Below, piece by piece: positions 962 through 35,491 of a DNA stretch of 35,491 nt. The DNA is from a virus (Duplodnaviria; Heunggongvirae; Uroviricota; Caudoviricetes). The stretch spans positions 1-35,491 of the IMG/VR virus record IMGVR_UViG_2671180778_000014; one strand, 5' to 3'. Made by a program: the position numbers and the translations under genes. Every line of letters starts with the position of its first letter. The first letter of the stretch is position 1. The notes under the pieces were generated by a model. That model did no database searches, was not told where the DNA came from, and saw only the letters and a list, made by a program, of their open reading frames with translations.

Positions 962-1001
962 GCCCCTATCGTTATAATACGCGGTAGGGGCGTTTTTGTT
1001 T
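962..1001 (+). terminator. rho-independent terminator
   Basis: GCCCCTATCG / CGGTAGGGGC stem followed by GTTTTTGTTT. Confidence 0.5.
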
Positions 1002-1010
1002 GGAAATGGT

Positions 1011-2690
1011 ATGAAAACTAAACTGTATTCGTATATTCGCTTCTCGTCTATGCGTCAGAATGATGGTTCGAGTTATGAACGACAAATCAGGATGGCGAGA
1101 GAGGTTGCGGCAAAGTATGACCTTGAACTGGTAAATGATTATCAGGATCTGGGTGTATCTGCGTTTAAGGGTGCTAACTCTAAAACAGGGGCGCTATCTC
1201 GTTTCCTTGATGCAATTGGTAGATCCGTTCCTGTTGGTAGCTGGCTATTCATCGAGAACTTGGACCGTTTATCCCGTGCCGATATTGTCAGTGCGCAGGA
1301 GTTATTCCTTTCAATAATCCGTAGGGGGATAACCATTGTTACTGGCATGGATAACAAGATCTACTCGCTGGATACTGTTACCGCTAACCCGATGGACCTG
1401 ATGTTCTCCATCCTTTTATTCATCCGTGGTAATGAGGAAAGCCAGACTAAGCGCAATCGTACTAACTCAAGCGCATTGATTAAGATTAAAGCTCATCAAG
1501 AAAATCCACAAAATCCGGCAGTGGCTATCGAGGAAGTTGGAAAGAATATGTGGTGGACTGATACCACTTCCGGTTATGTGTGTCCCGATCCGGTCTTCTT
1601 CCCTATTGTTCAGGAGGTTGTGGAATTACGCAGGAATGGACGGTCTACCGCCGAGATACTGGATCACCTTAACGCGACATATACACCACCACCAGCCGCA
1701 AGTCACAAGAGGCATTCAAACTGGTCACGAGCAATGATTGAAAGGTTGTTCCATACCCGCGCTTTGATTGGTATCAAGGAAATCTCTGTAGATGGCGTTA
1801 AGTATGAGTTAAAGGATTATTACCCTCGTGTGCTAGATGACGCTGAGTTTTATCACCTTAAGAAAAGCATTGGTGTTAGAGCATGTAACTATGGAGACAA
1901 AGAAGAAGCTAAACCGATCCCCCTGCTTAGTGGTGTTAATCTGCTGAAATGTGAACATTGCGGTTCCGCTATGGTTAAGGTGAAAGGAACTAACAAACGG
2001 CCTAACCAATATCGTTATTCATGCGATGCAATGCGCTCTAGTCGTATTGCATGTGTGCATACAAACTGGAGTTTTCGAGGTGATCAATTAGAGAAAGCTG
2101 TATTGCAATTGCTGGCTGATAAAATCTGGATTGCTGAGGATAAGGCTAATCCTGTTCCGGCTTTGAAAGTACAGATTGATGAGATATCACGCAAGATTGA
2201 TAACCTGATTACCCTTTCTGCTATGACTGGAGCAACGAAGGAGTTAGCCGACCAGATTACTACCCTCAATAGCGAGCGTGAAACACTCTATAATCAGATT
2301 AAGATGGCAGAAGAGGAAATGTATTCTGTGGACTCTCAAGGCTGGGAGAAGCTCGCAGAATTTGATTTAGAAGATGTTTATAACGAGGATCGCATTAAGG
2401 TCCGGTTTAAGATTAAGCAAGCTCTAAAACGGATCGGGTGTAGCAGGATTGACAAATACAAAAACTTGTTTGTATTGGAATACATTGATGGCAAGACCCA
2501 GAGAGTTGTAATAGAAAATTCAAGAGGACCGAGGAAAGGACAAATCTTTGTCGATTTGAAAACTATCAATGATAGGCAGATTCTGGAGAGTAACGGGCTT
2601 GTTCTGCATCCATGTTTAGACATGCTGACAGATAAAGACTGGAAGCCAGAAGAGGAAATACCAGGTCCATTACAGGAATTTGGAATTTAA
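1011..2690 (+). CDS. large serine recombinase (integrase/resolvase family)
   Basis: N-terminal YSYIRFSSMRQ matches the Y-x-R-x-S-x-x-Q catalytic serine motif; about 560 aa with Cys cluster (CEHCGS...YSCDAM...IAC) and coiled-coil region typical of large serine recombinases. ATG at 1011 preferred over the track's TTG at 996, which lies inside the upstream terminator. Confidence 0.75.
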   Translation: MKTKLYSYIRFSSMRQNDGSSYERQIRMAREVAAKYDLELVNDYQDLGVSAFKGANSKTGALSRFLDAIGRSVPVGSWLFIENLDRLSRADIVSAQELFLSIIRRGITIVTGMDNKIYSLDTVTANPMDLMFSILLFIRGNEESQTKRNRTNSSALIKIKAHQENPQNPAVAIEEVGKNMWWTDTTSGYVCPDPVFFPIVQEVVELRRNGRSTAEILDHLNATYTPPPAASHKRHSNWSRAMIERLFHTRALIGIKEISVDGVKYELKDYYPRVLDDAEFYHLKKSIGVRACNYGDKEEAKPIPLLSGVNLLKCEHCGSAMVKVKGTNKRPNQYRYSCDAMRSSRIACVHTNWSFRGDQLEKAVLQLLADKIWIAEDKANPVPALKVQIDEISRKIDNLITLSAMTGATKELADQITTLNSERETLYNQIKMAEEEMYSVDSQGWEKLAEFDLEDVYNEDRIKVRFKIKQALKRIGCSRIDKYKNLFVLEYIDGKTQRVVIENSRGPRKGQIFVDLKTINDRQILESNGLVLHPCLDMLTDKDWKPEEEIPGPLQEFGI

Positions 2691-21475: not shown

Positions 21476-23479
21476 TCATTCAGCGGAGATGTGAAGAACT
21501 TTCAGCGCTTCCGGCTGGGTTACAACGTAATCCAGATCTACCCAGATACGCGGAACGATAGCAGACTGTGCGCGGTAGGTAGTGTCATCAATGTCAAGTT
21601 CCAGACCACCCCATTCACCGATGGTAATAGCGTCGAACGATCCCAGAACGATGTGGTCTACCGGAATAACACCAGAAGTAACTACGTCGTAACCAGCCAG
21701 TTTACCGTTTTCGATGATATAACCGGAAACACCGTTATCTTTCAGGGTAGATTCCAGTTCAGCAGCAGTTGCACCGCTCATTGCAAACTTGATCGCCTGA
21801 GCAGGAACGCCAGCGTCGGTCAGTTTAGCAATTTCTTTCAGGAAGTCTTTATAAGAGAAAGCAGCTTTCTTCTCTACGCGACCAGCATCTACCAGTTGTT
21901 TAATCACACCAGCCGGACCACGAGCATTTTCTTTGTCGGACAGAATCAGTTGTTCCAGTTTGATGCGAACAGCCTGGTTAATGTGATCAGTGATCAGGGT
22001 AGCGATGCCGGGTACGGTTTTGAGGCTAGCTCTGCTGATCGGATTCCCACCAGCAAACGTCTTAGGAGCCATTTTCACGTTTGCAAATTCAGCTTTACCT
22101 TCCGGCGCAGCACCGTTTTCATCAACGAAGCCGAAAGATTCAACGCTGGAAGCGGTCATTTTAGGAATAGCGGTCGGCGAAGTCAGACCAGACAGGACTT
22201 TCACACCAAGACGACCCAGAACGGATTCCGGCAACAGCATCGCTACATAGGAATCATTCAGCAGTTTTTCGTCGGTTACAGCGGTCAGAGTAGCTTTGGT
22301 GTTACCATCAGCAGCAGCACGCATAGCAGCAGTCGGAACGAATACAGAGCCACCGCGAGCAGCACGACCACGCTGCATAGTTGCAGTAGCAGCCATTGCA
22401 GAAAACTCGGCTTCGTGAGCACCCAGAGCTTCACCATCTACCAGAGAGCGAATTACGTTGTTCAGGTCAAAAGTTTTTTCCATTTTAGAGTCCTTAATTT
22501 GTTGTTCGTTATTACGTTGAGCATTGGTAATGTTATTTAGTGCCTTAGTGCGGAATGCTTCCGGCGTCATGTCTTTAACTGCCAATGCGCGTTTTAATTC
22601 TTCGTCGTCAATATTTAGTTCCCGCGCGATCTCGCGAATTTCTAATTCGTCTTCTTCGGAACGTTCAGCCACTTCTTCGATTTTTTCTTCTTCAATCGGA
22701 GCGGCTTCACGTTCTTCTTTTACTTCTTCTGTTTCCCGAACAGTTGAACTATCATCATCAACACTTTCAGGATGTTCAGCGTCTTTTCCGTCTTCGAGAT
22801 TTTCATTTTCTTCATTCTCTTCAACTTGGCGCTCTTGAGTTTCTTCTACTTCCGATTCTTTATTTTCTTCTACCGGAGTTTCTTCAACCTGAGCGGCTTC
22901 TTGTTCTTTGATTTCTTCGATTTGTTCTTTAGTCATATCGCGTTTAGCCTCCAAATTAACTGTGATAGTATTTAGAGAGCGATTTAAACCGACCGTATCG
23001 TCAGCAGGAACGGTAACGAAACTTAATTCGTATGGTGCCCACTTAGTAACAATCAATTGTCCTTTGGTGTAGTCGATGTGATATTCTTTAATGTCATAAC
23101 CGACAGAAATTTTTTCCATCGTACCTTCAATGACTTTATTGCGAATATCATTAGCCAAAGTGCCATGCTTAGAGAATTTAACCAGAGCACGACCTACGTT
23201 ATCCGCATCGATTCGAGCGTTACAAACGACACCAATATGATTATCGAAATTATGATTGAACAGCAACGGAGCGTTATTATTCAGACGAGACAGATCAACC
23301 GCTTCCGGTGTATGTACCAGAATTTCATCTAGTACCACCATCTCTTGATTTTGCTCATCCCAGAATTGGCGCTGATACGGCTGTTCACTGGAGAAAGCAA
23401 TTTCAAATTCGTATTGATCGTTATGCCCTTCGTTAATAACTCCACCGTAACCGTTAAGATCGCGGCGAAATTTAAGCAT
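21476..23479 (-). CDS. prohead protease - scaffold - major capsid protein fusion (HK97-fold)
   Basis: N-terminal PLLFNHNFDNHIGVV is prohead protease-like; central highly acidic coiled-coil region (scaffold/delta-like); C-terminal ~300 aa resemble an HK97-fold capsid protein; candidate internal RBS plus ATG at 22483. Confidence 0.8.
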   Translation of the reverse strand: MLKFRRDLNGYGGVINEGHNDQYEFEIAFSSEQPYQRQFWDEQNQEMVVLDEILVHTPEAVDLSRLNNNAPLLFNHNFDNHIGVVCNARIDADNVGRALVKFSKHGTLANDIRNKVIEGTMEKISVGYDIKEYHIDYTKGQLIVTKWAPYELSFVTVPADDTVGLNRSLNTITVNLEAKRDMTKEQIEEIKEQEAAQVEETPVEENKESEVEETQERQVEENEENENLEDGKDAEHPESVDDDSSTVRETEEVKEEREAAPIEEEKIEEVAERSEEDELEIREIARELNIDDEELKRALAVKDMTPEAFRTKALNNITNAQRNNEQQIKDSKMEKTFDLNNVIRSLVDGEALGAHEAEFSAMAATATMQRGRAARGGSVFVPTAAMRAAADGNTKATLTAVTDEKLLNDSYVAMLLPESVLGRLGVKVLSGLTSPTAIPKMTASSVESFGFVDENGAAPEGKAEFANVKMAPKTFAGGNPISRASLKTVPGIATLITDHINQAVRIKLEQLILSDKENARGPAGVIKQLVDAGRVEKKAAFSYKDFLKEIAKLTDAGVPAQAIKFAMSGATAAELESTLKDNGVSGYIIENGKLAGYDVVTSGVIPVDHIVLGSFDAITIGEWGGLELDIDDTTYRAQSAIVPRIWVDLDYVVTQPEALKVLHISAE

Positions 23480-25613: not shown

Positions 25614-27518
25614 TTAGAACGATGTTACCCAGCTACGGCCTCTATTTGGGCGTCTGGCGATGTTTTTACGTTGTGGTCGTGTGATTGGCTTATTTTCTTC
25701 GATTTGCTCGTCAGATTGCGTTTCAGGAGCTTTTACGGGTTCTTCTGGTTCACGGTTCAAACTATCTTTGATGGCTTCGAGTTTTTCCCATGACATTTTA
25801 TTGAGTACATGGCGAGAAGCAGCATAGGAATAAGCCAGGCAGTCGAGAGCCTCGTTTCGTTGCTGACCAACTTTTACCCAACGTGTGGTATTACCCTGCC
25901 GTTTCAACTGTTCAGAAAGCAATTGCTCGCAATAGTCATCAGGAACGTCACCAATCTGGAAGACAGTGTGAGGATCTCCATCTCTCAAGTTCCGGTTAAT
26001 CATTTCGCGGATCATCGTCTTAAGGTTGTTTACGCCCAGAATTTTAAGGGTAAAACCACCTGTTCTTGTGTCTTTTACCGGAAGGATTGGAGCATCAACA
26101 TTGCTTGCGCCCTTAATGGCTGATAGGTTTTGCCACCGACTACAAAAGCGGTAGATCACTTGCGTAGCACGTCCGTTTGATGAGTCCACGAAAGCGGATA
26201 GCATCGGGATTCGTTGACCGGATCGGGTATAGAATTTAGCTTTCAGGAAGTTGTAAAGCTGGTCATATGCTGGTGATTCGTGGCGTTCGCAGTTCACATC
26301 ATAGAATGATCGGTGATCAACTACGCATATCCCTTTACGCGAGATACCCAGCAAGGTAGATTCCAGACGGTCTTTTTGCTGGTCAACTCCACCTACCAGA
26401 GCCAGAACATCATCAGGGATATTGTCTAAGCTAATATCAGTTTTCAGCGTTTCCAGTTCGTCGGCTGTGCGGTCTTCGTTAAGATCATCGAAGGTTTCAC
26501 CTAAGACAGTGTTATAGAACGTTGCCAGTGACATATTCGCGTAGCTATCAGCAAAATCCACCACACACGCACGGATAGAACTAAACGGAGACATAAGGCG
26601 GTTAGCATGAAAACCGATTACTTCCGCATTAGGTTCGGTGGCGATCCATTCTCCCTTAGCAACAGCACGTAGGCGATCCCCTTCGGTCCAGTCGGTTTCA
26701 CATTCAGGGCAACGATAAACGGCTGTGTCGGGCGAAGGCAGTGATTTACCATTAACTTGATGCCAATCAAAATGGACGTTACTCCATTCCATTACGTGTC
26801 TGTGTCCGCAATGCTGGCATGGAACATAGTATTTTCGTTTATCTGATAGCTCGAATTGTTGGTTGATCGCCCCATCTCGCGACGTTGGAGTAGAAGCAAT
26901 TACGATCCGTGCATCTTCCCCGAAAGTGGTTGCTCGTTGTTCCGCTAGCTGGATCGGGTTCCCTTCATCTGATTCATCAGCCGCATCAACTTCATCAAGA
27001 ATAATCAAAGGCAGTGTCTTACCGCGCAAGTGTGATGGACTGTTCAGCGACATGAAATACATGAATGATCCGTTACGAAGCTGAATAATCGATGAGTTGT
27101 TAACAGCATTACGGTCTGATTTGTCGGTGATCATCGCTTTTAATTCTGGCGTAGCCTCTAATACTGGCTTCACCTTACCAGCGATCCAAGAATTTAGTTC
27201 TCTAACGTTTGATTGCAACACCCCTATATTCGTAGGGTTACTGGCGATCCTGTGGAAGATAATTCCGTTAAGAATCATAGTCTTACCCAACTGCGCCGAA
27301 CATTTAAACACAATTTTTCTACGGTCTTCGGTGATCGCGTCCATCATTCCACGTTGGAAGGGATGCAATTTAATTAGAGATCCGGCTTTAACGCCATCGG
27401 TAGCCACTACGTTAGCCTCTACCCATTCGCTAGGTTTCATGGCTTTAGGCGGTCGAATTGCAGCAGAGATATTTTTAAGAATCTTTTTTAATTTAGCCTT
27501 ATTAGAAATCAGTTTCAT
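25614..27518 (-). CDS. terminase large subunit (lambda gpA family)
   Basis: 634 aa; N-terminal PSEWVEANVV ... LHPFQRGMMDA and C-terminal RNEALDCLAYSYAA match the recalled lambda gpA pattern (AVEWADANYY ... LPFQRAIMNA ... RRNEALDCFVYALAA); Walker A-like QLGKT. Confidence 0.85.
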   Translation of the reverse strand: MKLISNKAKLKKILKNISAAIRPPKAMKPSEWVEANVVATDGVKAGSLIKLHPFQRGMMDAITEDRRKIVFKCSAQLGKTMILNGIIFHRIASNPTNIGVLQSNVRELNSWIAGKVKPVLEATPELKAMITDKSDRNAVNNSSIIQLRNGSFMYFMSLNSPSHLRGKTLPLIILDEVDAADESDEGNPIQLAEQRATTFGEDARIVIASTPTSRDGAINQQFELSDKRKYYVPCQHCGHRHVMEWSNVHFDWHQVNGKSLPSPDTAVYRCPECETDWTEGDRLRAVAKGEWIATEPNAEVIGFHANRLMSPFSSIRACVVDFADSYANMSLATFYNTVLGETFDDLNEDRTADELETLKTDISLDNIPDDVLALVGGVDQQKDRLESTLLGISRKGICVVDHRSFYDVNCERHESPAYDQLYNFLKAKFYTRSGQRIPMLSAFVDSSNGRATQVIYRFCSRWQNLSAIKGASNVDAPILPVKDTRTGGFTLKILGVNNLKTMIREMINRNLRDGDPHTVFQIGDVPDDYCEQLLSEQLKRQGNTTRWVKVGQQRNEALDCLAYSYAASRHVLNKMSWEKLEAIKDSLNREPEEPVKAPETQSDEQIEENKPITRPQRKNIARRPNRGRSWVTSF

Positions 27519-27605
27519 GTAATTACCCTCATTACGAAATATGAAGGTATTTATTAAGTTGTTGATTTTTTGATAAATACGGGTATTAAGATTTAAGGGG
27601 GTTGT

Positions 27606-28211
27606 ATGCTAATTAATCAGCAACAAAGAGATGTATTAGAATTAGCCTTTTCTTGTTGTACCGATCATGAATATCGTTTGCCAGTTAAGCACCATCACAA
27701 GAAGACTGATTACACAACATCCGGCTTTAGTCGCGAGGAAGCTAAACAGATTTTAATCGAGTTGTATCGTGATCATGGGTATACCGATATTCATAACTTC
27801 TTTAAGAAGCACCGAACATCACAGACAGAGTTTAATAGAGTCCGTGAATGGTTTGATTTTGACATTAAGCGATTCTATCGAGTGGATGACGGTCCAATCT
27901 ATCGGTTGCAGTGGACACCGATTAGGGAAGTGCTTAAACAGAAGAGATTGAATCATGCCATTACACGCTATCGTAACGTGGCTTTTAAGAAAGGCTATGG
28001 TGATACAAGGGAACTATTCGTTGAACTCGCTAACGTGCGATATAGCCACTATTACAGGAATCCTAAAGAGTTCTTCGAAGTGCTGCGCAAGGTTGATATA
28101 AGTCGGGGTACATACTATTCACGGTTGAAGAAGTACGGGATTAAGGCAGAGTTCTTTATGTCGGTTGACGATGGAGAACTTTTTCCGATAAAATGTAAGT
28201 CCTCTAAATAA
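27606..28211 (+). CDS. hypothetical DNA-binding protein with C-terminal HTH
   Basis: 201 aa; C-terminal FEVLRKVDISRGTYYSRLKKYGI is HTH-like; RBS AAGGGGG; divergent from the terminase gene. Confidence 0.5.
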   Translation: MLINQQQRDVLELAFSCCTDHEYRLPVKHHHKKTDYTTSGFSREEAKQILIELYRDHGYTDIHNFFKKHRTSQTEFNRVREWFDFDIKRFYRVDDGPIYRLQWTPIREVLKQKRLNHAITRYRNVAFKKGYGDTRELFVELANVRYSHYYRNPKEFFEVLRKVDISRGTYYSRLKKYGIKAEFFMSVDDGELFPIKCKSSK

Positions 28212-28239
28212 AGGTGAACATTCACTTTAATTTGGAGAA

Positions 28240-28473
28240 ATGACTATGACTACTAAAGCTACTCGCGGTCGCCCTGCCCGTTTTAACGCTGAACAGATGG
28301 CTGATATTGCCTACGCTTACTATACAGCGGATCGCGGGAAGGAAGCGAAAGAACAGATTCTTAGTGAACATGGGATCTCAATCGCCCAATTCTATAAGAA
28401 TATGAAGAAGTTAGACATTAAATTCTATGTTCAGATCGGTGATGGTCAGATCGTAGAAGCAACAGGTTTTTGA
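28240..28473 (+). CDS. small HTH protein resembling a terminase small-subunit N-terminal DNA-binding domain
   Basis: 77 aa; TRGRPARFNAEQMADIAYAYY ... GISIAQFYKNMKK fits the GRPxK(F/Y) + HTH pattern of some small terminase N-termini (Sf6 gp1-like as recalled). Confidence 0.5.
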   Translation: MTMTTKATRGRPARFNAEQMADIAYAYYTADRGKEAKEQILSEHGISIAQFYKNMKKLDIKFYVQIGDGQIVEATGF

Positions 28474-28488
28474 GTTTTGATTCTCTTT

Positions 28489-28513
28489 GCCACTCTTCGG
28501 AGTGGCTTTTTTT
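28489..28513 (+). terminator. rho-independent terminator
   Basis: GCCACTC-ttcg-GAGTGGC hairpin followed by TTTTTTT. Confidence 0.6.
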
Positions 28514-28516
28514 ATG

Positions 28517-28544
28517 CCTATAGAAAACAAAAAAGCCCCGCACT
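28517..28544 (-). terminator. rho-independent terminator (conserved family)
   Basis: minus-strand AGCCTCGC-ctagt-GCGGGGCT followed by TTTTTTG; third copy of the AAAAAAGCCCC...GGCT module. Confidence 0.5.
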
Positions 28545-28558
28545 AGGCGAGGCTAAAA

Positions 28559-29029
28559 TCATACTTTGATTCGGACAAACTTGCATCCTAACTCATTTTC
28601 AATTCTTCGTTGACGGATCTCGTCTTGCTCTTTCTTGTACTGGTGTTCTGGTTCATCAATTTCATAAGCTATATTATTAACCGGATCATAACCATCAATT
28701 CGATAGTTTAACACCCGACACTGGCGAATCAGGTTGATACCTAAAACTTGTTCTATAGTGTTAAGAGCAATCTTTTCGGCAGTAGATAAACCAAAACGTA
28801 AGCCGTTATAGCGTTTATACATCGCATCTGCTAATTGTCCACACAGCATATAGTGACACTTTTTTCGATTTTGGGAATCTACATACACAGATTCAACAAA
28901 AGCAATTCCTGTATTTTTAGAAACTAACCTAACGTCACGCAAAACATCTTGATGTCTCTTTCCAAATTCTTTAGCCAAATCCAGAGAGCTAATCTGTTCT
29001 TTTTCTAATTGTAATGCAGCATTTCCCAT
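28559..29029 (-). CDS. Rha-type N-terminal domain protein with small C-terminal nuclease-like domain
   Basis: LAKEFGKRHQDVLRDVRLV matches the Rha regulatory domain signature; C-terminal YDPVNNIAYEIDEPEH ... KFVRIK has acidic residues compatible with an endonuclease-like fold (tentative). Confidence 0.5.
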   Translation of the reverse strand: MGNAALQLEKEQISSLDLAKEFGKRHQDVLRDVRLVSKNTGIAFVESVYVDSQNRKKCHYMLCGQLADAMYKRYNGLRFGLSTAEKIALNTIEQVLGINLIRQCRVLNYRIDGYDPVNNIAYEIDEPEHQYKKEQDEIRQRRIENELGCKFVRIKV

Positions 29030-29072
29030 AAAGTACCCCTTAAAAGCCCCTGAAATTCAGGGGCAAAAATTA

Positions 29073-29906
29073 TTACAGTCCGAAGACTTCCAGAGAGCCA
29101 GCATTCTGACGAATCAGCAAAGCAGTGTTATTAATGATTGCTCGTGAGTTATTCGGCTGTGGCAATTTCAAAGTTGCGGCCTTTTCTTCTTCAAGCAATC
29201 CGAGTTTTACGAGATGCGGGATAGCATCAGCAGTGAACTCGATCTGACCGTGTGCCGACATACGAGCGAACATATAGCCAGGAGGAAGCAGATCATAGCC
29301 TTTAGGCTTACCAGAAGCATCCAGACGACGCTCAAGAACACCAGCAGCACATAAACCTTTCAGAATCATTTGTACCTTCGTAGAGCCTCGTTTTTCGCCT
29401 AATAAGCGGCTAAGACTGTGTGCATCAATAGCTTTACGGATATGAAGATCAACTAATTGTTCTTTTTCTTGAATCAGTTGTTCGTTTGCGGCTTCTAATT
29501 CCATTGCCTCACGAATCCAATCGAGCTTAGTCATGTTTGCGTATGGGTTGACTTGCTGAGAACGCAGTTTTTCATTTTCTTCTTTCAGTCGTTTCCATTC
29601 CTGAATAACAACCATTCGACGCTTAACATCGTAACCAGTGACAAGAGTCAGAGTCATTTCTTCGTCTAGTTGATATTCGTTTTGTTCGCGTCCGTATTGG
29701 TCAAAATAGATGACGCGAAACTTCGCGTGATCTTCATAACCTAGAGCATTCAACATCTTAGTTATATCAACTTTAACTTTGTGGTGTTCTTTTCCGGTAA
29801 ATTCAGCGATCTGACGAGAAGACATGGTCAGTGGTTTGGTGTTATCAACAACCAGAGACACGGAAGCAGTTTTAACAGCAGTATTCATAGTAGTAACAGT
29901 ATTCAT
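29073..29906 (-). CDS. antirepressor-type regulator (Rha N-terminal domain + KilAC-like C-terminal domain)
   Basis: SSRQIAEFTGKEHHKVKVDITKMLNAL ... VIYFDQYGREQNEYQL is Rha-like; C-terminal LSRLLGEKRGSTKVQMILKGLCAAGVLERR ... GYMF is KilAC/Ant-like. Confidence 0.7.
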   Translation of the reverse strand: MNTVTTMNTAVKTASVSLVVDNTKPLTMSSRQIAEFTGKEHHKVKVDITKMLNALGYEDHAKFRVIYFDQYGREQNEYQLDEEMTLTLVTGYDVKRRMVVIQEWKRLKEENEKLRSQQVNPYANMTKLDWIREAMELEAANEQLIQEKEQLVDLHIRKAIDAHSLSRLLGEKRGSTKVQMILKGLCAAGVLERRLDASGKPKGYDLLPPGYMFARMSAHGQIEFTADAIPHLVKLGLLEEEKAATLKLPQPNNSRAIINNTALLIRQNAGSLEVFGL

Positions 29907-29977
29907 AGTAAAAATTCCCCTTAAACGGTTTAGTGATTTGGTCCTCCTAGTTCCGGCATCACTACCGGAACAATTTT

Positions 29978-29984
29978 ATTTATA
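29978..29984 (-). promoter_or_regulatory. candidate -10 element (TATAAAT) of recurring promoter motif
   Basis: minus-strand CTCTTATAAATAAA about 70 nt upstream of the start at 29906. Confidence 0.3.
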
Positions 29985-29998
29985 AGAGCTATTTCTTA

Positions 29999-30331
29999 TT
30001 ACCAATCGATTTCTACCTGATCTTCTTCGTAGTAAGGAATCGCATACTCATAACGCCAGTTTTCGATGATTTCACGTTCTTCATTGGTAAGAAGGTGATT
30101 GCTAACTGGAGTCGCATTATGATTACCAGCTTCGAATTGCTCGCGAACTTCCAGCATTGCATGAATACCAGTTAAAGACATAAGGTCAAACGGGATATGC
30201 ATACTACGTGAGATAGGTTCACGGGAAACGCCCCAATCATTTTCTACATGGCGAGCTTTAACCAAAACGGTTTTACCAATGATTTCTACAGTCCAGTCAT
30301 ACAAGGATTTAGTGATGGTAAATTCTTTCAT
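29999..30331 (-). CDS. hypothetical protein (early-type, downstream of a strong promoter)
   Basis: 110-aa ORF; strong sigma70-like promoter about 50 nt upstream. Confidence 0.5.
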   Translation of the reverse strand: MKEFTITKSLYDWTVEIIGKTVLVKARHVENDWGVSREPISRSMHIPFDLMSLTGIHAMLEVREQFEAGNHNATPVSNHLLTNEEREIIENWRYEYAIPYYEEDQVEIDW

Positions 30332-30387
30332 GTTACATCCTCTTTACAAATCTAGGTCAAATAGGTTCAAAATTGTCAAGTGCGATA

Positions 30388-30416
30388 ATCATAAAAAAGT
30401 CAAAAAATTTTGTCAA
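30388..30416 (-). promoter_or_regulatory. sigma70-type promoter (TTGACA - 17 nt - TATGAT)
   Basis: minus-strand TTGACA at 30416-30411, 17-nt AT-rich spacer, TATGAT at 30393-30388; further TTGACA boxes nearby. Confidence 0.5.
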
Positions 30417-30451
30417 TACCCCTTGACAAGATGCCAAAGGGTTGACCTAAC

Positions 30452-30919
30452 TTACAGCATATCTAAGCCTTCATCGTAACCGTAGAAGCTATTGTGAGAA
30501 GAAAAACAGATTGGTGCGTAGTCTTCGTCTTCCTCGTCTTCTTCATCTTGTTCTGGGGCTTCCTGAGCGGTTTCTTTGCCGTAGTTAAACATTGCTTCAT
30601 CCAGTTCATAGACAGTAACGAAGCTACCTAAATCAATGTCACCTGACCGGACTTCGAAAGGCAGATCATCACGAACAATAATTGCTGGTAGATTCTGGTA
30701 TTTCAGGCGATCTTCATCGGTGAAGCAGTTAACAACGATGGTAGGACGTTTATTTCTTCCGAAAACATACCATGCACTAGAGAAATGGGATTCATCGGTA
30801 TTGTAAAGGATGTTATAACCACGTTCACGGAACATCTTCATTAACTTGTCATTGTGAAAGCTATCTGCATCCAGACCCAGAAGGATAAAAGGAGTAGTGG
30901 TAGTCATTTTGTGGTTCAT
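30452..30919 (-). CDS. hypothetical acidic protein
   Basis: ATG at 30919 preceded by GAGGA with 8-nt spacer; C-terminal EQDEEDEEDEDY acidic tail. Confidence 0.5.
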   Translation of the reverse strand: MNHKMTTTTPFILLGLDADSFHNDKLMKMFRERGYNILYNTDESHFSSAWYVFGRNKRPTIVVNCFTDEDRLKYQNLPAIIVRDDLPFEVRSGDIDLGSFVTVYELDEAMFNYGKETAQEAPEQDEEDEEDEDYAPICFSSHNSFYGYDEGLDML

Positions 30920-30965
30920 AGTGGTAATCCTCAAAAAGAAAGTTAATCAAAGTAATTCTGATATT

Positions 30966-30972
30966 ATTTATA
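30966..30972 (-). promoter_or_regulatory. candidate -10 element (TATAAAT) of recurring promoter motif
   Basis: minus-strand CTCTTATAAATAATA about 50 nt upstream of the start at 30919. Confidence 0.3.
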
Positions 30973-31224
30973 AGAGAAAATTCTTGATGATTTTGGAAGG
31001 GATGGATTCAGTCGGGCTAAAGCCCTCCTTCATAGATTTGATTAAAAGACCAGCAAACGTAACTCGGATCTTATAGTTAATATAGTTATCTTTGAAGAAA
31101 TAATAATCAGGAAGCAATTTCAGCAACCGCAGGTTGCGATCCCGAAGGGATAACCAATACCTTTCTAGAAAGTGATTGTTACTCACTTCGTTCGTTTACT
31201 AGAATCAGTTATCATCTAGTATTA

Positions 31225-31595
31225 AATCCCTTTCTAAGAAAATCCTTTCAAAAGTGAGTGAACGCCGTAGGCGTGAACGTGAGCGAAGCGAACTATCCAA
31301 TCCCTTTCGAATCCTGCTTGCAGGTCTTAGAAGGTGTTGGTGGGCGCTACGCGCACGGCTACGCCGTATTCTTTTTGCGAGATCTTTCTTGAACGTAGTG
31401 AGAGAAAGCGAGCAAAAAGGAGAACGTTAGTTCGAATTTTATATTCTATGGTCTGTTGGGTATAATCCCTTTCAAGATCATACACTTACGTGATTGAAGT
31501 GTAGGGTTAGTGTAGGTGTGTAGGTTTCATAGTGTAGGTTTGAGAGTGTTATAGTGTAGGTTTACTGGCTAGTGTAGTGTAGGCCAATCCCTTTA
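31225..31595 (+). repeat. dispersed direct repeats of the 10-mer AATCCCTTT(C/A)
   Basis: copies at 31225, 31299, 31464 and 31586, a degenerate copy at 31241, and an inverted copy at 35108-35117. Confidence 0.6.
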
Positions 31596-31617
31596 AAGTG
31601 TAGGTGTGTAGTGTAGG
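31499..31617 (+). repeat. iteron array of the heptamer GTGTAGG (about 10 copies, mostly GTGTAGGTT)
   Basis: copies at 31499, 31510, 31518, 31532, 31554, 31577, 31598, 31611 plus GTGTAGT variants at 31572 and 31606, followed by an AT-rich stretch. Confidence 0.7.
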
Positions 31618-31813
31618 TTTTCTATCAAAAATTTTGACAAAAATTATTGTATATTATTTAACCAAAAAATCACCAAAAAGCGGCGTAAATTCATGATTTA
31701 AAAGAAATTTTCAAAAGATCTCCGTGCCATAATAGGTTATAAAGGTTGATAATCATTATTTGCCATTTTCAAACAAAAATTTTGATACACTTTTCTCGCT
31801 TAGATCATTGGTA

Positions 31814-31842
31814 TTGACAAGTGTCAAGAACTATTTTATACT
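31814..31842 (+). promoter_or_regulatory. consensus sigma70 promoter (TTGACA - 17 nt - TATACT)
   Basis: TTGACA at 31814-31819, 17-nt spacer, TATACT at 31837-31842. Confidence 0.6.
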
Positions 31843-31849
31843 TTTTCTC

Positions 31850-32007
31850 ACTGGTAGGGGTTGAAATTTTCCAAACAATCCACATATAGATGATAAGCAT
31901 GATTTTTTCGTGTATAAATACATGCATGAAAAATGATTGTTCACTTCTGAAAACCTCCTGACTCACTGTTAACTCATACAGCACTGGTTAGATACACAGT
32001 GCTTTTT
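31850..32007 (+). ncRNA. candidate small non-coding RNA (promoter-to-terminator unit)
   Basis: about 160 nt between the consensus promoter and an intrinsic terminator (AGCACTG ... CAGTGCT + TTTTT at 31980-32007); no RBS-supported ORF. Confidence 0.3.
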
Positions 32008-32131
32008 CGGTTGAATATTGTACGGATTGATTAATTATTAATCTTCTCTTTAGCAATTCGTGCTCCCTCTGATCGGATATACAGTGGTTTTACAGAGTTT
32101 TTGAAAATCATTTTTATAAATAGAATTGTTC

Positions 32132-32150
32132 AGAGCGAAAAGCTCTTTTT
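32132..32150 (+). terminator. terminator/attenuator hairpin
   Basis: AGAGC-gaaa-GCTCT followed by TTTTT, 35 nt upstream of the 60-aa gene. Confidence 0.4.
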
Positions 32151-32186
32151 AAAAAAATCATTATTCCAGATTTAGGAGGATTCAAG

Positions 32187-32369
32187 ATGGCACGACCTGT
32201 TAAGTTCACTCGTGAAATCGTTTTAGAAATGGCAAAGCGTTATTTTGAACTGACACCTGATGTAGTGATGGGTGATTGGTTTAAAGGTGAAGGCATTGAT
32301 CAATCAACCTTCCATAAACTTTTAAAGAAGTATGAAATTCGCGTAAAGATTACCGCCGAGGTGTGGTAA
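32187..32369 (+). CDS. small HTH protein (paralog of the 77-aa protein)
   Basis: 60 aa; ARPVKFTREIVLEMAKRY ... GIDQSTFHKLLKKY parallels RGRPARFNAEQMADIAYAYY ... GISIAQFYKNMKK; RBS AGGAGG. Confidence 0.5.
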   Translation: MARPVKFTREIVLEMAKRYFELTPDVVMGDWFKGEGIDQSTFHKLLKKYEIRVKITAEVW

Positions 32370-32413
32370 TAACCTTTGACTGAGAATTATATGATGGCTT
32401 TAAAAATAAAAAA

Positions 32414-32441
32414 GCCTCCCTGTTGGCGCAAGGAGGCTTTT
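32414..32441 (+). terminator. rho-independent terminator
   Basis: GCCTCC-ctgttggcgcaa-GGAGGC followed by TTTT. Confidence 0.5.
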
Positions 32442-32486: not shown

Positions 32487-33488
32487 ATGAAAAATTCTAA
32501 GCGCATCACCTTCAACCTGTTCATTAAATCCAACGGCAAACTGAACATTACCGTTATGGAAGGTAAAGCAAGCAAACAAGACAAATCCTTTGAAGTAGTA
32601 TCCGGTAAGACTCTGACCGAAATGCGTCAGAATGCTGGCATCAAAGACGGTGCTGAATGGCAGATCACTAACCGTTTCGACAAACGTCACGTTAAACCTA
32701 CACTGGTAGAAGGTGAATCCGTTTATTGCTTCGCTCGTGCTGTTAAAGCCGATGAAACTTACTATCTCGCTGTTATTAAAACTGCTTCCGGTTTCCGTGC
32801 TGTAATGCATCACAAGAGCAAGCGTAACGAATACGGCGTAGAGACCCAGGAAGTTGCAAAACGCTTCCGTACTGTTGCTACTGAATCCACTGTAAAAGAT
32901 GTTTCTGGTACTGTTAACACCGCTAAAGGCGGTTCCTTCTACAACCACGCATTACAGGTTACTTCCTCCTTCTTCTGCAAAAAAGAAGCACAGAAAGAAG
33001 TTGCTCCGGTAGTAGTTGAAGAAGTTAAAGAAGAAGTAGCAGTGGTTGAATCTTCCGAAGTTGAAGCACTGAAAGCACGCATCGCTGAACTGGAAGCTGA
33101 AAACGCATCTCTGAAAGCTGAACTGGCAGCACAGGAAACCACTTTCGAAGTAGCAGCGGTTGAAGTTGAAGCAGTTGAAGAAAAATCCATTGATGAAGAA
33201 CTGGAAGAACTCCTTAACTATCGCTGGGGTAACGGTGAAGAAGTAGAACAGGAAGAACAGAAAGAAGCTGATCCGGTAGTAGTTCCGGTTGAAGCAGAAT
33301 CCGCACCAGTTACTAACTTTGAATCCCTGCGCAATAACTTTATGGCTAAATTCAAAACCACTTGGGAAGATACCGAAGAAGAACAAGAAGAGATTGATGT
33401 AAACGAAGACGAGATCCGCGAAGCACAGATGGCACTGCATGACGCTATCTATGACACCAACTACAGCGCCTACGCATACGCAGCTTAA
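32487..33488 (+). CDS. acidic coiled-coil protein with host-optimal codon usage (function unknown)
   Basis: 333 aa; N-terminal ~170-aa Lys/Thr-rich domain, then EALKARIAELEAENASLKAELAAQ coiled coil and acidic tail; codons are almost exclusively E. coli high-expression choices (CTG, CGT, GGT, GCT, TCC, AAC, GAA), unlike the rest of the window. Confidence 0.6.
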   Translation: MKNSKRITFNLFIKSNGKLNITVMEGKASKQDKSFEVVSGKTLTEMRQNAGIKDGAEWQITNRFDKRHVKPTLVEGESVYCFARAVKADETYYLAVIKTASGFRAVMHHKSKRNEYGVETQEVAKRFRTVATESTVKDVSGTVNTAKGGSFYNHALQVTSSFFCKKEAQKEVAPVVVEEVKEEVAVVESSEVEALKARIAELEAENASLKAELAAQETTFEVAAVEVEAVEEKSIDEELEELLNYRWGNGEEVEQEEQKEADPVVVPVEAESAPVTNFESLRNNFMAKFKTTWEDTEEEQEEIDVNEDEIREAQMALHDAIYDTNYSAYAYAA

Positions 33489-34454: not shown

Positions 34455-35006
34455 TTACGACACATCAAATTCATCGTCTTCTTCTGGTTCTTGTTCCGGT
34501 TCATCCATTAATGGTAATTCTTCTTCCTCGTCTTCTCCCAAATCTGCATTTTCGAACAAGTCCCCTACTTCATTTAAACGACGCTCGATGATCTCCCTTA
34601 GCTTATTCTTCAATGTTTTCTGGTCAGTGGCAGATTCGAGAATTTCTAAAGCGTCGATTGTGGCGATCTGCAAAATAGTCTGCTTCACTTTTCCGCAATA
34701 TTCCGCTAGTTGCTGTTCTACATACCCGACCGGAATCAGGAGATTCATTGCTTCCTGGTTCTCTCGTTCGGCTGCGTCCGCTAATGCTCTCTCGCGGCGT
34801 AATTTCTCTACGTCAATTTGTTCCTTGACAGTAGTTTCCTTGAGCGGGTTGATGATATTTTTTAATACCCACTCGGTCCCCTCTTTGGCTGGTACGCGTC
34901 GTGTATTGGTATTAAATGGCATTCCTCGTTCTTGCCATTTCTTAGCGGCGTTAATTGTATAGCCGTATAAGCGGGAAATTTCTGTAAGGGTTAATTCTTC
35001 TTTCAT
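34455..35006 (-). CDS. terminase small subunit candidate (lambda Nu1-like winged HTH)
   Basis: ATG at 35006 preceded by GGAGG; LTLTEISRLYGYTINAAKKWQERGMPF parallels the recalled Nu1 N-terminus (QLADIFGASIRTIQNWQEQGMPV); about 180 aa with acidic C-terminus. Confidence 0.45.
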   Translation of the reverse strand: MKEELTLTEISRLYGYTINAAKKWQERGMPFNTNTRRVPAKEGTEWVLKNIINPLKETTVKEQIDVEKLRRERALADAAERENQEAMNLLIPVGYVEQQLAEYCGKVKQTILQIATIDALEILESATDQKTLKNKLREIIERRLNEVGDLFENADLGEDEEEELPLMDEPEQEPEEDDEFDVS

Positions 35007-35491
35007 CCGGTTATCCTCCATTAAATTTGCGTAAAATTATTTATCTGATCTGCGCATTCAGGAGAGCGCCTAAAACGCTTTATAACGAAGGGAAAGATCG
35101 AGGCGGGGAAAGGGATTGGCTGGTGTTAATAGTCGCGTAGCGACCGCGCTGGTGGGCTGCACTGCACCTGTTTTGAAATCTCACACGCACATCAAAAACC
35201 GGGGTGCCGAAAACTCGCTTTATTTCACCCGTGGAACAGTACCTTTTGATTTTGTCAAGTCTTTTTTATAAATAATCGAAAATATTTTTCACACGAGGGC
35301 AAATCATGAATACTAAAGATATTAAGATTGACTTTGAAACTGTTGATGACGTTCGGGAACATCGCATTGATTCTACTGGCTGAATCTTCCAGCTTACTAA
35401 CCCCCCTATTGGATTGATTATCTATGTAGCAGAAGATGACGTGTACGCTATATGGGATGGACAGGATGAGTTTAAAGGCGGGAATAGCCAT

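What the first reader, a model, noticed from the sequence alone, without database searches (positions are those of the whole stretch)
27606..32369. Three paralogous small HTH proteins with a terminase small-subunit-like N-terminal motif
The 77-aa and 60-aa proteins share the pattern (R)GRPxKF/ARPVKF ... HTH ... KK(L/Y), and the 201-aa protein carries a related HTH at its C-terminus. Proteins this small, limited to a terminase-small-subunit-like DNA-binding domain, could act as regulators or as competitors of packaging-site recognition. Their multiplicity next to iterons is notable.
Basis: partly seen in the sequence, partly recalled or inferred. Interest (0 to 1): 0.5.

Follow-up and report, generated by a model that had tools for sequence, protein, structure and literature searches.

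The report
New helix-turn-helix paralog family in prophage
Three small genes of an uncharacterised E. coli prophage really are paralogs, carrying four copies of one new DNA-binding helix-turn-helix domain; they are probably the phage's own regulators, and they are neither its packaging (small terminase) protein nor the protein that reads the nearby repeats.

Summary
The 77-aa, 60-aa and 201-aa proteins share one ~55-residue domain, and the 201-aa protein carries it twice. Profile-profile scores are 30-52, against 10-12 ± 2 for shuffled controls. AlphaFold2 predicts three helices plus a beta-hairpin. The only outside link is a distant one to IS3-transposase/resolvase-type helix-turn-helix families (HTH_Tnp_1, HTH_23, HTH_28, HTH_7).

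All three genes are intact, under purifying selection and in conserved positions in all 41 related prophages examined (p60 where the sequence reaches it). These come from E. coli, Salmonella and Proteus.

The terminase reading is not supported. No terminase family matches, and the real small terminase is a 188-aa protein at 34455-35021.

The iteron link is also not supported. The repeat type (GTGTAGG, CAGGGGCAA, CTAGGGATG, ACGGGGA) follows the N-terminal domain of the neighbouring 333-aa protein in 36 of 36 loci. It does not follow any of the paralogs.

The 60-aa gene heads a portable module: iterons, the 60-aa gene, the iteron-matched protein and a coiled-coil protein. The same module occurs in a T4-like phage contig.

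Most likely these are sequence-specific phage regulators. Targets and functions are inferred, not shown. This is a new family of a known kind, of moderate interest.

The parts
27606..28211 (+). p201: 201-aa protein with two tandem copies of the domain. Copy D1 is about residues 36-101 (nt 27711-27908) and D2 about residues 131-195 (nt 27996-28190). The N-terminal 30 residues and the 111-133 linker are modelled with low confidence.
   Evidence: ORF. Both halves match the p77 and p60 profiles. AlphaFold2 pLDDT 70.6, with two helix-helix-helix-strand-strand modules. 32 homologues, all unnamed.
28240..28473 (+). p77: single-domain protein with an RGRPxRF arm, three helices and a beta-hairpin. The likely true start is 28246 (75 aa).
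   Evidence: AlphaFold2 pLDDT 81.2: H17-29, H34-43, H48-57, E63-66, E70-73. Third helix ISIAQFYK is invariant or nearly so across the family.
32187..32369 (+). p60: single-domain protein (ARPVKF arm plus helix-turn-helix) that lacks the beta-hairpin. It is the first gene of the rightward unit p60-p333-p80.
   Evidence: The relative P0073 heads the same module in a T4-like contig.
27519..27605 (.). 87-bp divergent control region between the large terminase gene and p201. It is highly conserved in all loci compared, whatever the TerL or p201 type.
   Evidence: MAFFT alignment of 8 loci.
28489..28516 (+). Terminator-like hairpin with a T-run that ends the p201-p77 unit.
31814..31842 (+). Strong sigma-70-like promoter (TTGACA-17-TATACT, 11 of 12) about 345 bp upstream of p60. 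Two hairpins with U-runs lie in the leader, at about 31978-32008 and 32133-32155.
   Evidence: Conserved in L004 and L005.
32410..32441 (.). 13-bp-stem hairpin between p60 and p333. An analogous hairpin follows the p60-like gene in the T4-like contig.
31499..31617 (+). Context: iteron cluster, GTGTAGG x8 in direct orientation. It is matched to p333, not to the paralogs.
   Evidence: 13 copies in the window against 2.05 expected. Covaries with the p333 N-domain type in 36 of 36 loci.
32487..33488 (+). Context: p333, the inferred iteron-binding protein. It has a type-specific N-domain, a coiled coil and an acidic tail. No known family matches.
31156..31598 (+). Context: AATCCCTTTC-class repeats (5-6 copies). 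A further exact copy lies at 35108-35117 (-), 102 bp upstream of the small terminase start. These are candidate targets for a paralog with conserved specificity; this is not shown.
   Evidence: 4 exact copies against 0.15 expected. Conserved across loci.
34455..35021 (-). Context: the phage's real small terminase subunit, 188 aa.
   Evidence: PHROG_57 'terminase small subunit', E 1.6e-15 over 2-173 of the protein. Unrelated to the paralog family.
25614..27518 (-). Context: gpA-type large terminase, first gene of the leftward structural operon.
   Evidence: Pfam GpA_ATPase E 2.1e-62 and GpA_nuclease E 1.3e-46.

Best explanation
The three genes encode a new family of small sequence-specific DNA-binding proteins. 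They are built from one ~55-residue domain: a basic N-terminal arm (RGRPxRF / ARPVKF), a three-helix helix-turn-helix and, in p77 and both halves of p201, a C-terminal beta-hairpin. The domain is distantly related to the HTH of IS3-family transposases (OrfA) and Hin/resolvase.

They are core genes of an uncharacterised ~35-kb temperate phage lineage of Enterobacterales. That lineage integrates with a serine recombinase and has no recognisable CI/Cro-type repressor or late activator. I infer that the paralogs are the phage's transcriptional regulators, each with its own target.
- p201 is a built-in pseudo-dimer of two reading heads. With p77 it forms a short terminated unit that shares a conserved 87-bp divergent control region with the structural (late) operon. 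These two are inferred to act at the early/late or lysogeny switch.
- p60 is the leader gene of a portable module (iterons, promoter, p60, hairpin, iteron-matched protein p333, coiled-coil protein). It is inferred to regulate, or to act as an accessory factor in, that probable replication-origin/initiator module. This resembles the small repressors encoded ahead of plasmid rep genes.

Shown: the paralogy, the fold class, conservation, synteny, non-identity with the small terminase, and the uncoupling from the iterons.
Inferred: DNA binding, the targets and the regulatory roles.
For: Paralogy and duplication.

Superfamily link: the A4 profile searched against 1.84 billion proteins found only family members plus multi-HTH proteins (E 5e-13 to 5e-4). 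Those proteins are Pfam HTH_Tnp_1, HTH_23, HTH_28 and HTH_7. hhalign of A4 against the HTH_Tnp_1 repeat unit of P0076 gives probability 95%, E 3.4e-8 over 45 columns.

Core genes under purifying selection, with fixed synteny in E. coli, Salmonella and Proteus.

No other conserved regulator is recognisable in the window. Rha genes are variable and absent from the Proteus member.

The TerL-p201 control region is conserved across all TerL and p201 types.

p77's third helix is invariant across the family, while p201's third helices vary between near-discrete types that are either ~100% or ~50% identical.

The p60-like gene P0073 heads the same module, with its own iteron class, in a T4-like contig.
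Against: - No direct Pfam, PHROG, NCBIfam or PADLOC hit for any of the three.
- The distant HTH hits were selected by the same profile, and their scores add over repeats.
- No binding site could be assigned. The pairwise-identity matrices of p201, p77 and p60 do not correlate with each other or with anything informative.
- A p60-like gene in a virulent T4-like phage argues against a lysogeny-specific role for p60.
- p333, not a paralog, could be the repressor, with the iterons as its operators.
Confidence: 0.55

Rival explanations
1. The proteins are terminase small-subunit-like DNA-binding domains that recognise the packaging site or compete for it.
For: A GRPxxF arm followed by an HTH also occurs at the N-terminus of some small terminases. 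Some of the distant multi-HTH hits also score on Pfam Sf6_terminase. p201-p77 always lie next to the large terminase gene.
Against: No terminase family hit at E up to 1 in Pfam or up to 0.1 in PHROGs. No oligomerisation or TerL-binding region. The phage has a full-length small terminase elsewhere, and the paralog profile does not match it (probability 0.2%). p201-p77 are transcribed divergently from TerL. p60 lies about 4.7 kb from TerL and about 2 kb from TerS.
Confidence: 0.05
2. The paralogs, especially p60, are the proteins that bind the GTGTAGG iterons.
For: p60 is encoded about 570 bp downstream of the iteron cluster.
Against: The iteron class follows the N-domain type of p333 in 36 of 36 loci. 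p60 type 0 (at least 88% identical) is found with GTGTAGG in 6 loci and with CAGGGGCAA in 8. The p60 of L003 is 95% identical to the window's p60 although the iterons differ. p201 and p77 types are also uncoupled from the iterons.
Confidence: 0.04
3. One or more paralogs are recombination directionality factors or architectural proteins for the large serine recombinase (996..2690), controlling excision.
For: The phage integrates with a serine recombinase, and no excision factor is recognisable. From my own knowledge, such factors are often small and diverse.
Against: No match to excisionase families. The genes are 10-30 kb from the integrase gene in the prophage. A p60-like gene occurs in a virulent T4-like phage contig. 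Three conserved paralogs are more than this role needs.
Confidence: 0.1
4. p60 is not a general regulator. It is an obligatory component of the iteron module: an origin accessory or architectural protein, or a copy-control autorepressor. p201 and p77 have unrelated roles.
For: The block of hairpin-rich GC segment, iterons, promoter, p60-like gene, hairpin, p333-N-like gene and 80-aa coiled-coil gene is shared with a T4-like contig. p333 and its counterpart there are 33% identical over 90 aa (E 2e-10). p60 always directly precedes p333.
Against: Only two non-prophage contigs carry the module. That the module is a replication origin is itself inferred: p333 has no known family and no plasmid homologue.
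Confidence: 0.22

Closest known systems
IS3-family transposase OrfA HTH (Pfam HTH_Tnp_1, PF01527) and the related HTH_23 and HTH_28 'homeodomain-like' families
   Same: Three-helix HTH with the signature G-I/V-S-x-x-T/Q-F-Y-K/R-x-x-K-K-Y. A first helix begins F-x-x-E-x-x. The proteins are small. hhalign of the paralog profile against an HTH_Tnp_1 repeat unit gives probability 95%.
   Different: No direct Pfam match. No leucine zipper or transposase partner, and no IS ends. The paralogs have an extra C-terminal beta-hairpin and a GRP/ARP arm. They are core phage genes in fixed positions.
Hin/resolvase C-terminal DNA-binding domain (Pfam HTH_7, PF02796)
Terminase small subunit DNA-binding domains (Sf6 gp1-type PF20901; lambda Nu1-type)
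   Same: An N-terminal arm followed by an HTH at the start of a small phage protein.
   Different: No family match. No oligomerisation core. The phage has a separate PHROG_57 small terminase that is unrelated to the paralogs.
Phage Mu Mor and C (paralogous small HTH activators of successive transcription classes) and plasmid copy-control repressors such as CopG encoded ahead of rep (functional analogies from my own knowledge)
   Same: Several small paralogous DNA-binding regulators in one phage genome. A small DNA-binding gene heads an operon that encodes the iteron/origin-specific protein.
   Different: No sequence relationship, including no Pfam Mor hit. CopG has a ribbon-helix-helix fold. 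Function here is untested.
Phage T4 oriE iterons with RepEA and RepEB
   Same: Iteron cluster with small early genes in a T4-type genome (PMC3016281). The module found here in a T4-like contig lies about 2-3 kb from the position equivalent to oriE.
   Different: RepEA and RepEB (50 and 45 aa) show no similarity to the paralog profile. They lie antisense within gene 5, not between genes 3 and 2.

Membership tests
Terminase small subunit (Sf6-type PF20901, Terminase_2, Nu1, PHROG_57) | Significant match to a small terminase profile | tested here: not met
   No terminase family at E up to 1 in Pfam or up to 0.1 in PHROGs for any of the three.
Terminase small subunit (Sf6-type PF20901, Terminase_2, Nu1, PHROG_57) | DNA-binding domain followed by an oligomerisation core and a TerL-binding tail | tested here: not met
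   p60 and p77 consist of the HTH domain alone. p201 is two HTH domains plus a linker.
Terminase small subunit (Sf6-type PF20901, Terminase_2, Nu1, PHROG_57) | Being the genome's small terminase gene | tested here: not met
   The 188-aa ORF at 34455..35021 matches PHROG_57 over its full length (E 1.6e-15). It is unrelated to the paralogs.
HTH_Tnp_1 / HTH_23 / HTH_28 / HTH_7 (transposase-resolvase homeodomain-like HTH superfamily) | Direct match to the Pfam models above the gathering score | tested here: not met
   No such hit at E up to 1.
HTH_Tnp_1 / HTH_23 / HTH_28 / HTH_7 (transposase-resolvase homeodomain-like HTH superfamily) | Remote profile-level homology to bona fide members | tested here: met
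   The family profile finds multi-HTH proteins (E 5e-13 to 5e-4, library-wide) that carry these Pfam domains. hhalign against the P0076 repeat unit gives probability 95%. Caveat: these targets were selected by the same profile.
HTH_Tnp_1 / HTH_23 / HTH_28 / HTH_7 (transposase-resolvase homeodomain-like HTH superfamily) | Three-helix HTH fold | tested here: inconclusive
HTH_Tnp_1 / HTH_23 / HTH_28 / HTH_7 (transposase-resolvase homeodomain-like HTH superfamily) | Sequence-specific DNA binding | not testable with these tools
   Needs EMSA, footprinting or DAP-seq.
Excisionase / recombination directionality factor (HTH_17, Xis-type) | Match to excisionase families, or stimulation of excisive recombination | tested here: not met
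   No family hit. Activity cannot be tested here.
Cro/CI-type repressors (HTH_3, HTH_31) | Match to Cro/CI HTH profiles | tested here: not met
   No hit.
Iteron-binding initiator or centromere-binding proteins | Protein type covaries with the iteron sequence | tested here: not met
   Covariation is with p333 (36 of 36 loci), not with p60, p77 or p201.
T4 RepEA / RepEB | Sequence similarity | tested here: not met
   hhalign probability 0.1-0.2%.

The most novel reading that the evidence does not exclude
The whole temporal and lysogeny circuit of this phage lineage is built from duplicates of a single Hin/IS3-OrfA-like HTH domain. p201 would be a covalent pseudo-dimer repressor with discrete immunity-like types. 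p77 would be a conserved-specificity activator or repressor acting at AATCCCTTTC-class sites. p60 would control a portable iteron-type origin module that moves between temperate phages and T4-like phages. That would be a regulatory architecture unrelated to the CI/Cro, Mor/C or Q paradigms.
Probability: 0.2. Interest if true: 0.6.

Novelty: new member of a known kind. Interest (0 to 1): 0.35.

Why it matters
The prophage lineage is present in about 1% of complete E. coli genomes (58 of 5426) and also in Salmonella and Proteus. It has no relative among 50,697 deposited phage genomes. It also has no recognisable repressor, late activator or replication gene.

The three paralogs and the iteron-matched protein p333 are the only conserved candidates for those roles. 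Defining them would therefore open the biology of a whole uncharacterised group of temperate phages.

The family would also add a new, currently unannotated HTH family to the databases. The accompanying iteron module, swapped between specificity classes and shared with a T4-like phage, is a candidate portable origin or regulatory cassette.

Tried and rejected
Searches that found nothing for the three proteins:
- Pfam, PHROGs, NCBIfam and PADLOC scans.
- tblastn of p77, p201, P0073 and the 204-aa partner against 50,697 phage records, and of p333 against 72,556 plasmids.
- Profile search against PDB sequences; the best hit was 2lvs at E 0.25.
- Literature search by RefSeq accession.

Searches that found only the same lineage or nothing useful:
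- Scans of IMG/VR, JGI/ENA metagenomes and GTDB species genomes for more contexts of the p60-like gene. These returned only the same prophage lineage, plus one weak Clostridium hit in a housekeeping context, which I judged uninformative.
- Rfam and tRNA scans of the window were empty.

Ideas tested and rejected:
- The small terminase idea was rejected after finding the real small terminase.
- Iteron binding by the paralogs was rejected by covariation.
- A T4 RepEA/RepEB relationship was rejected.

Attempts that were underpowered or inconclusive:
- Assigning targets by correlating protein-identity matrices over 8 loci gave no usable signal (Spearman about 0 among the paralogs).
- p333 could not be placed in any family.
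- RNA folding of the GC-rich segment and of the p60 leader gave only modest z-scores (-1.97 and -2.58).


Full report
**What the window is**

The 35.5-kb window is a temperate-phage genome or prophage.
- A leftward structural operon starts with a gpA-type large terminase at 25614..27518 (Pfam GpA_ATPase E 2.1e-62, GpA_nuclease E 1.3e-46).
- A large serine recombinase lies at 996..2690.
- There are no tRNA genes and no Rfam hits.

Close relatives are integrated in 58 of 5426 complete E. coli chromosomes. They also occur in Salmonella and Proteus, in 33 IMG/VR proviruses and in 11 metagenome contigs. No deposited phage genome is related at the DNA level. The best large-terminase relative is 44% identical.

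**Check of the observation**

The three ORFs exist as described. Single-sequence BLASTP is marginal, with E 1e-4, 0.007 and 0.009.

I collected orthologues for each protein: 19, 32 and 19 proteins, all unnamed and all from Enterobacterales. I aligned them as A1 to A3.

Profile-profile comparison then gave these results:
- p77 family vs p60 family: probability 96.9%, E 1.5e-10.
- p77 family vs the C-terminal half of p201: probability 89%.
- p60 family vs the N-terminal half of p201: probability 92%.

I split p201 into halves and compared all six pairs. Scores were 30.7-52.5, in one consistent register (F-S/T-R-E helix 1 ... HTH ... K-K-Y/L-x-I-K). For each pair, 60 column shuffles gave means of 10.6-11.8 (sd 1.8-2.9, highest 22.9), and reversed profiles gave 8.9-13.9.

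The paralogy is therefore real. p201 is an internal duplication, so the genome holds four copies of the domain.

The genes are real. pN is far below pS in every comparison, and dN/dS is 0.10-0.31 where synonymous sites are not saturated. p201 and p77 are intact in all 41 loci examined, and p60 in every locus long enough to include it.

**What the domain is**

AlphaFold2 predicts the following for p77 (pLDDT 81): a disordered basic arm, three helices (17-29, 34-43, 48-57) and a beta-hairpin (63-66, 70-73). For p201 (pLDDT 71) it predicts two such modules joined by a low-confidence linker.

Structure searches gave nothing significant:
- Foldseek against PDB and BFVD: all E above 0.1.

Direct scans of Pfam, PHROGs, NCBIfam and PADLOC found no family.

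A profile of the p77 and p60 families (A4) was searched against 1.84 billion representative proteins. It found only 15 proteins:
- family members, including two further small ones, P0071 and P0073;
- long proteins made of 4-7 tandem HTH repeats (E 5e-13 to 5e-4).

Those long proteins are Pfam HTH_Tnp_1, HTH_23, HTH_28 and HTH_7. hhalign of A4 against the repeat unit of one of them gives probability 95% over all three helices.

The domain is thus a distant, unannotated member of the IS3-OrfA / resolvase type of HTH. From my own knowledge, the GRP-type arm ahead of the HTH is the arrangement by which Hin contacts the minor groove.

**Not a small terminase**

No terminase profile matches the three proteins.

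A different ORF, 34455..35021 (-), matches PHROG_57 'terminase small subunit' over its whole length (E 1.6e-15). The paralog profile does not match it (probability 0.2%).

This small terminase lies about 7 kb upstream of the large terminase on the same strand. The whole early block lies between them, and this arrangement is the same in every relative.

**Not the iteron readers**

The GTGTAGG cluster at 31499-31617 is real: 13 copies in the window against 2.05 expected.

In relatives, the same position holds other repeats: CAGGGGCAA, CTAGGGATG (11-bp period, about 19 copies) or ACGGGGA.

Across 36 loci the repeat class follows the N-terminal domain type of the gene downstream of p60 (p333) without exception. 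In contrast, one p60 type (at least 88% identical) occurs with GTGTAGG in 6 loci and with CAGGGGCAA in 8. p201 and p77 types are also uncoupled from the repeat class.

p333 is therefore the inferred iteron-binding protein. It has no known family and no plasmid homologue.

**Context that bears on function**

Synteny is fixed in E. coli, Salmonella and Proteus:
- TerL (-)
- p201 and p77 (+), ending in a terminator
- variable genes, often Rha-family (-)
- an acidic ~150-aa protein (-)
- a 1.2-1.7-kb non-coding region
- p60, p333 and a coiled-coil protein (+)
- TerS (-)

The 87-bp TerL/p201 divergent region is almost invariant. This holds although TerL falls to 54-59% identity and p201 to 46-56% between loci. 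That points to a shared control region.

p77's third helix is invariant or nearly so across the family. p201's third helices vary, and p201 falls into near-discrete types that are either ~100% or ~50% identical. Such a pattern is usual for specificity determinants such as immunity repressors. This is an inference.

A second repeat, AATCCCTTTC, has 4 exact copies against 0.15 expected. Three lie in the non-coding region and one lies 102 bp upstream of TerS. They are conserved across loci. This repeat is a candidate target for a paralog with conserved specificity, but nothing assigns it.

**p60 and its portable module**

The p60 relative P0073 shares about 38-48% identity with p60-family proteins and an identical MARPVKFTRE start. 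It lies in a T4-like phage contig between the homologues of T4 genes 3 and 2.

In that contig it is preceded by a hairpin-rich GC segment, about 11 AGCGATTAC iterons and a TTGACA promoter. It is followed by a hairpin, then a 204-aa protein whose N-domain is homologous to that of p333 (33% identity over 90 aa, E 2e-10), then an 80-aa coiled-coil protein.

So p60 belongs to a portable cassette. The cassette's layout (iterons, an AT-rich stretch, GC hairpins including GCGAAGC motifs, and a type-matched binding protein) resembles a replication origin/initiator module.

T4's own oriE iterons are a precedent for iterons in such genomes (PMC3016281). However, RepEA and RepEB are unrelated to the paralogs.

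The presence of a p60-like gene in a virulent phage type argues against a lysogeny-specific or excision role for p60.

**Most likely mechanism**

The three proteins are sequence-specific DNA-binding regulators.
- p201, with two reading heads in one chain, and p77 are placed to act on the conserved divergent TerL/p201 control region or on other conserved sites, at the switch between early and structural-gene expression or in lysogeny.
- p60 is placed to regulate or assist the iteron module it heads.

No other conserved regulator is recognisable in this lineage, which supports the model indirectly. DNA binding, the targets and the roles are inferred.

Confidence that these are HTH DNA-binding proteins is about 0.8. 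Confidence in the regulatory roles as stated is about 0.55.

**Verdict**

The terminase and iteron parts of the interpretation are not supported. The 'transposase-type HTH' and 'regulator' parts are supported at the level of the superfamily and of plausibility.

This is a new family of a known kind of protein, in an uncharacterised but fairly common prophage lineage. It is of moderate interest. The neighbouring specificity-swapping iteron module is at least as interesting as the paralogs themselves.

Noticed in passing
window 31499-31617 and 32487-33488; L003, L005, L008, L024, L043: The iteron class (GTGTAGG, CAGGGGCAA, CTAGGGATG with an 11-bp period, ACGGGGA) covaries in 36 of 36 loci with the N-domain type of the 333-aa protein downstream of p60. 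This is a specificity-swapping cassette, like the ori/initiator or operator/repressor modules of mosaic phages. The protein has no known family.
   Followed up: yes
L006 4900-6650 (ENA ERZ27275837 k141_13924) and L007: A T4-like phage contig carries the same module between its gene 3 and gene 2 homologues: GC hairpin segment, AGCGATTAC iterons, a p60-like gene, a p333-N-like gene and an 80-aa coiled-coil gene. T4 itself has only 106 bp at that position.
   Followed up: partly
window 34455-35021 (-) relative to 25614-27518 (-): The small terminase gene (PHROG_57) is separated from the gpA-type large terminase gene by about 7 kb of early and regulatory genes on both strands. This is conserved in all relatives and is unusual for lambda-type terminases.
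   Followed up: partly
window 31225-31473 (+) and 35108-35117 (-): AATCCCTTTC occurs 4 times exactly, against 0.15 expected, always in non-coding DNA. One copy lies 102 bp upstream of the small terminase start, at the same distance in L003, L004 and L005. The binding factor is unknown.
   Followed up: partly
window 31254-31380: A GC-rich island inside an AT-rich intergenic region. It contains GCGAAGC mini-hairpin motifs, a ~45-bp imperfect inverted repeat centred on 31313-31324 and a terminator-like hairpin at 31355-31367. It could be a single-strand initiation signal or a small RNA. The RNA folding z-score is only -1.97.
   Followed up: partly
window 31814-32186: A strong sigma-70-like promoter (11 of 12) lies about 345 nt upstream of p60. 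Two hairpins with U-runs (about 31978-32008 and 32133-32155) precede the p60 ribosome-binding site. This could be attenuation or a short leader RNA.
   Followed up: no
window 28559-29029 (-): This 156-aa ORF joins a Rha N-terminal domain to a DUF559/Vsr-like endonuclease domain. It shares 75% nucleotide identity over 243 nt with the T4-like phage vB_ESM-pEJ01 and is absent from L002-L005. It looks like a mobile, homing-endonuclease-like insertion.
   Followed up: no
L001 (GenBank PQ671644, 'Escherichia phage DCP80'): A 141-kb record classified in Straboviridae begins with a gpA-type terminase, portal and capsid block related to this prophage lineage (TerL 44% identical). The record may be a chimeric assembly.
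   Followed up: no
window 21476-23479 (-): The major capsid protein is fused to an S78 prohead protease domain (667 aa). Relatives carry Pfam Peptidase_S78 plus Phage_capsid.
   Followed up: no
window 30452-30934 (-): A conserved ~150-160-aa protein with a strongly acidic C-terminal region and a conserved YAP-I/V-x-F motif is present in all relatives, directly left of the long non-coding region. It has no family match.
   Followed up: no
L002 12139-13119: The E. coli PRO_A-1412-6M-A copy of the prophage has an IS5-like ISKpn26 insertion within the head-tail gene block, so that copy is probably defective.
   Followed up: no
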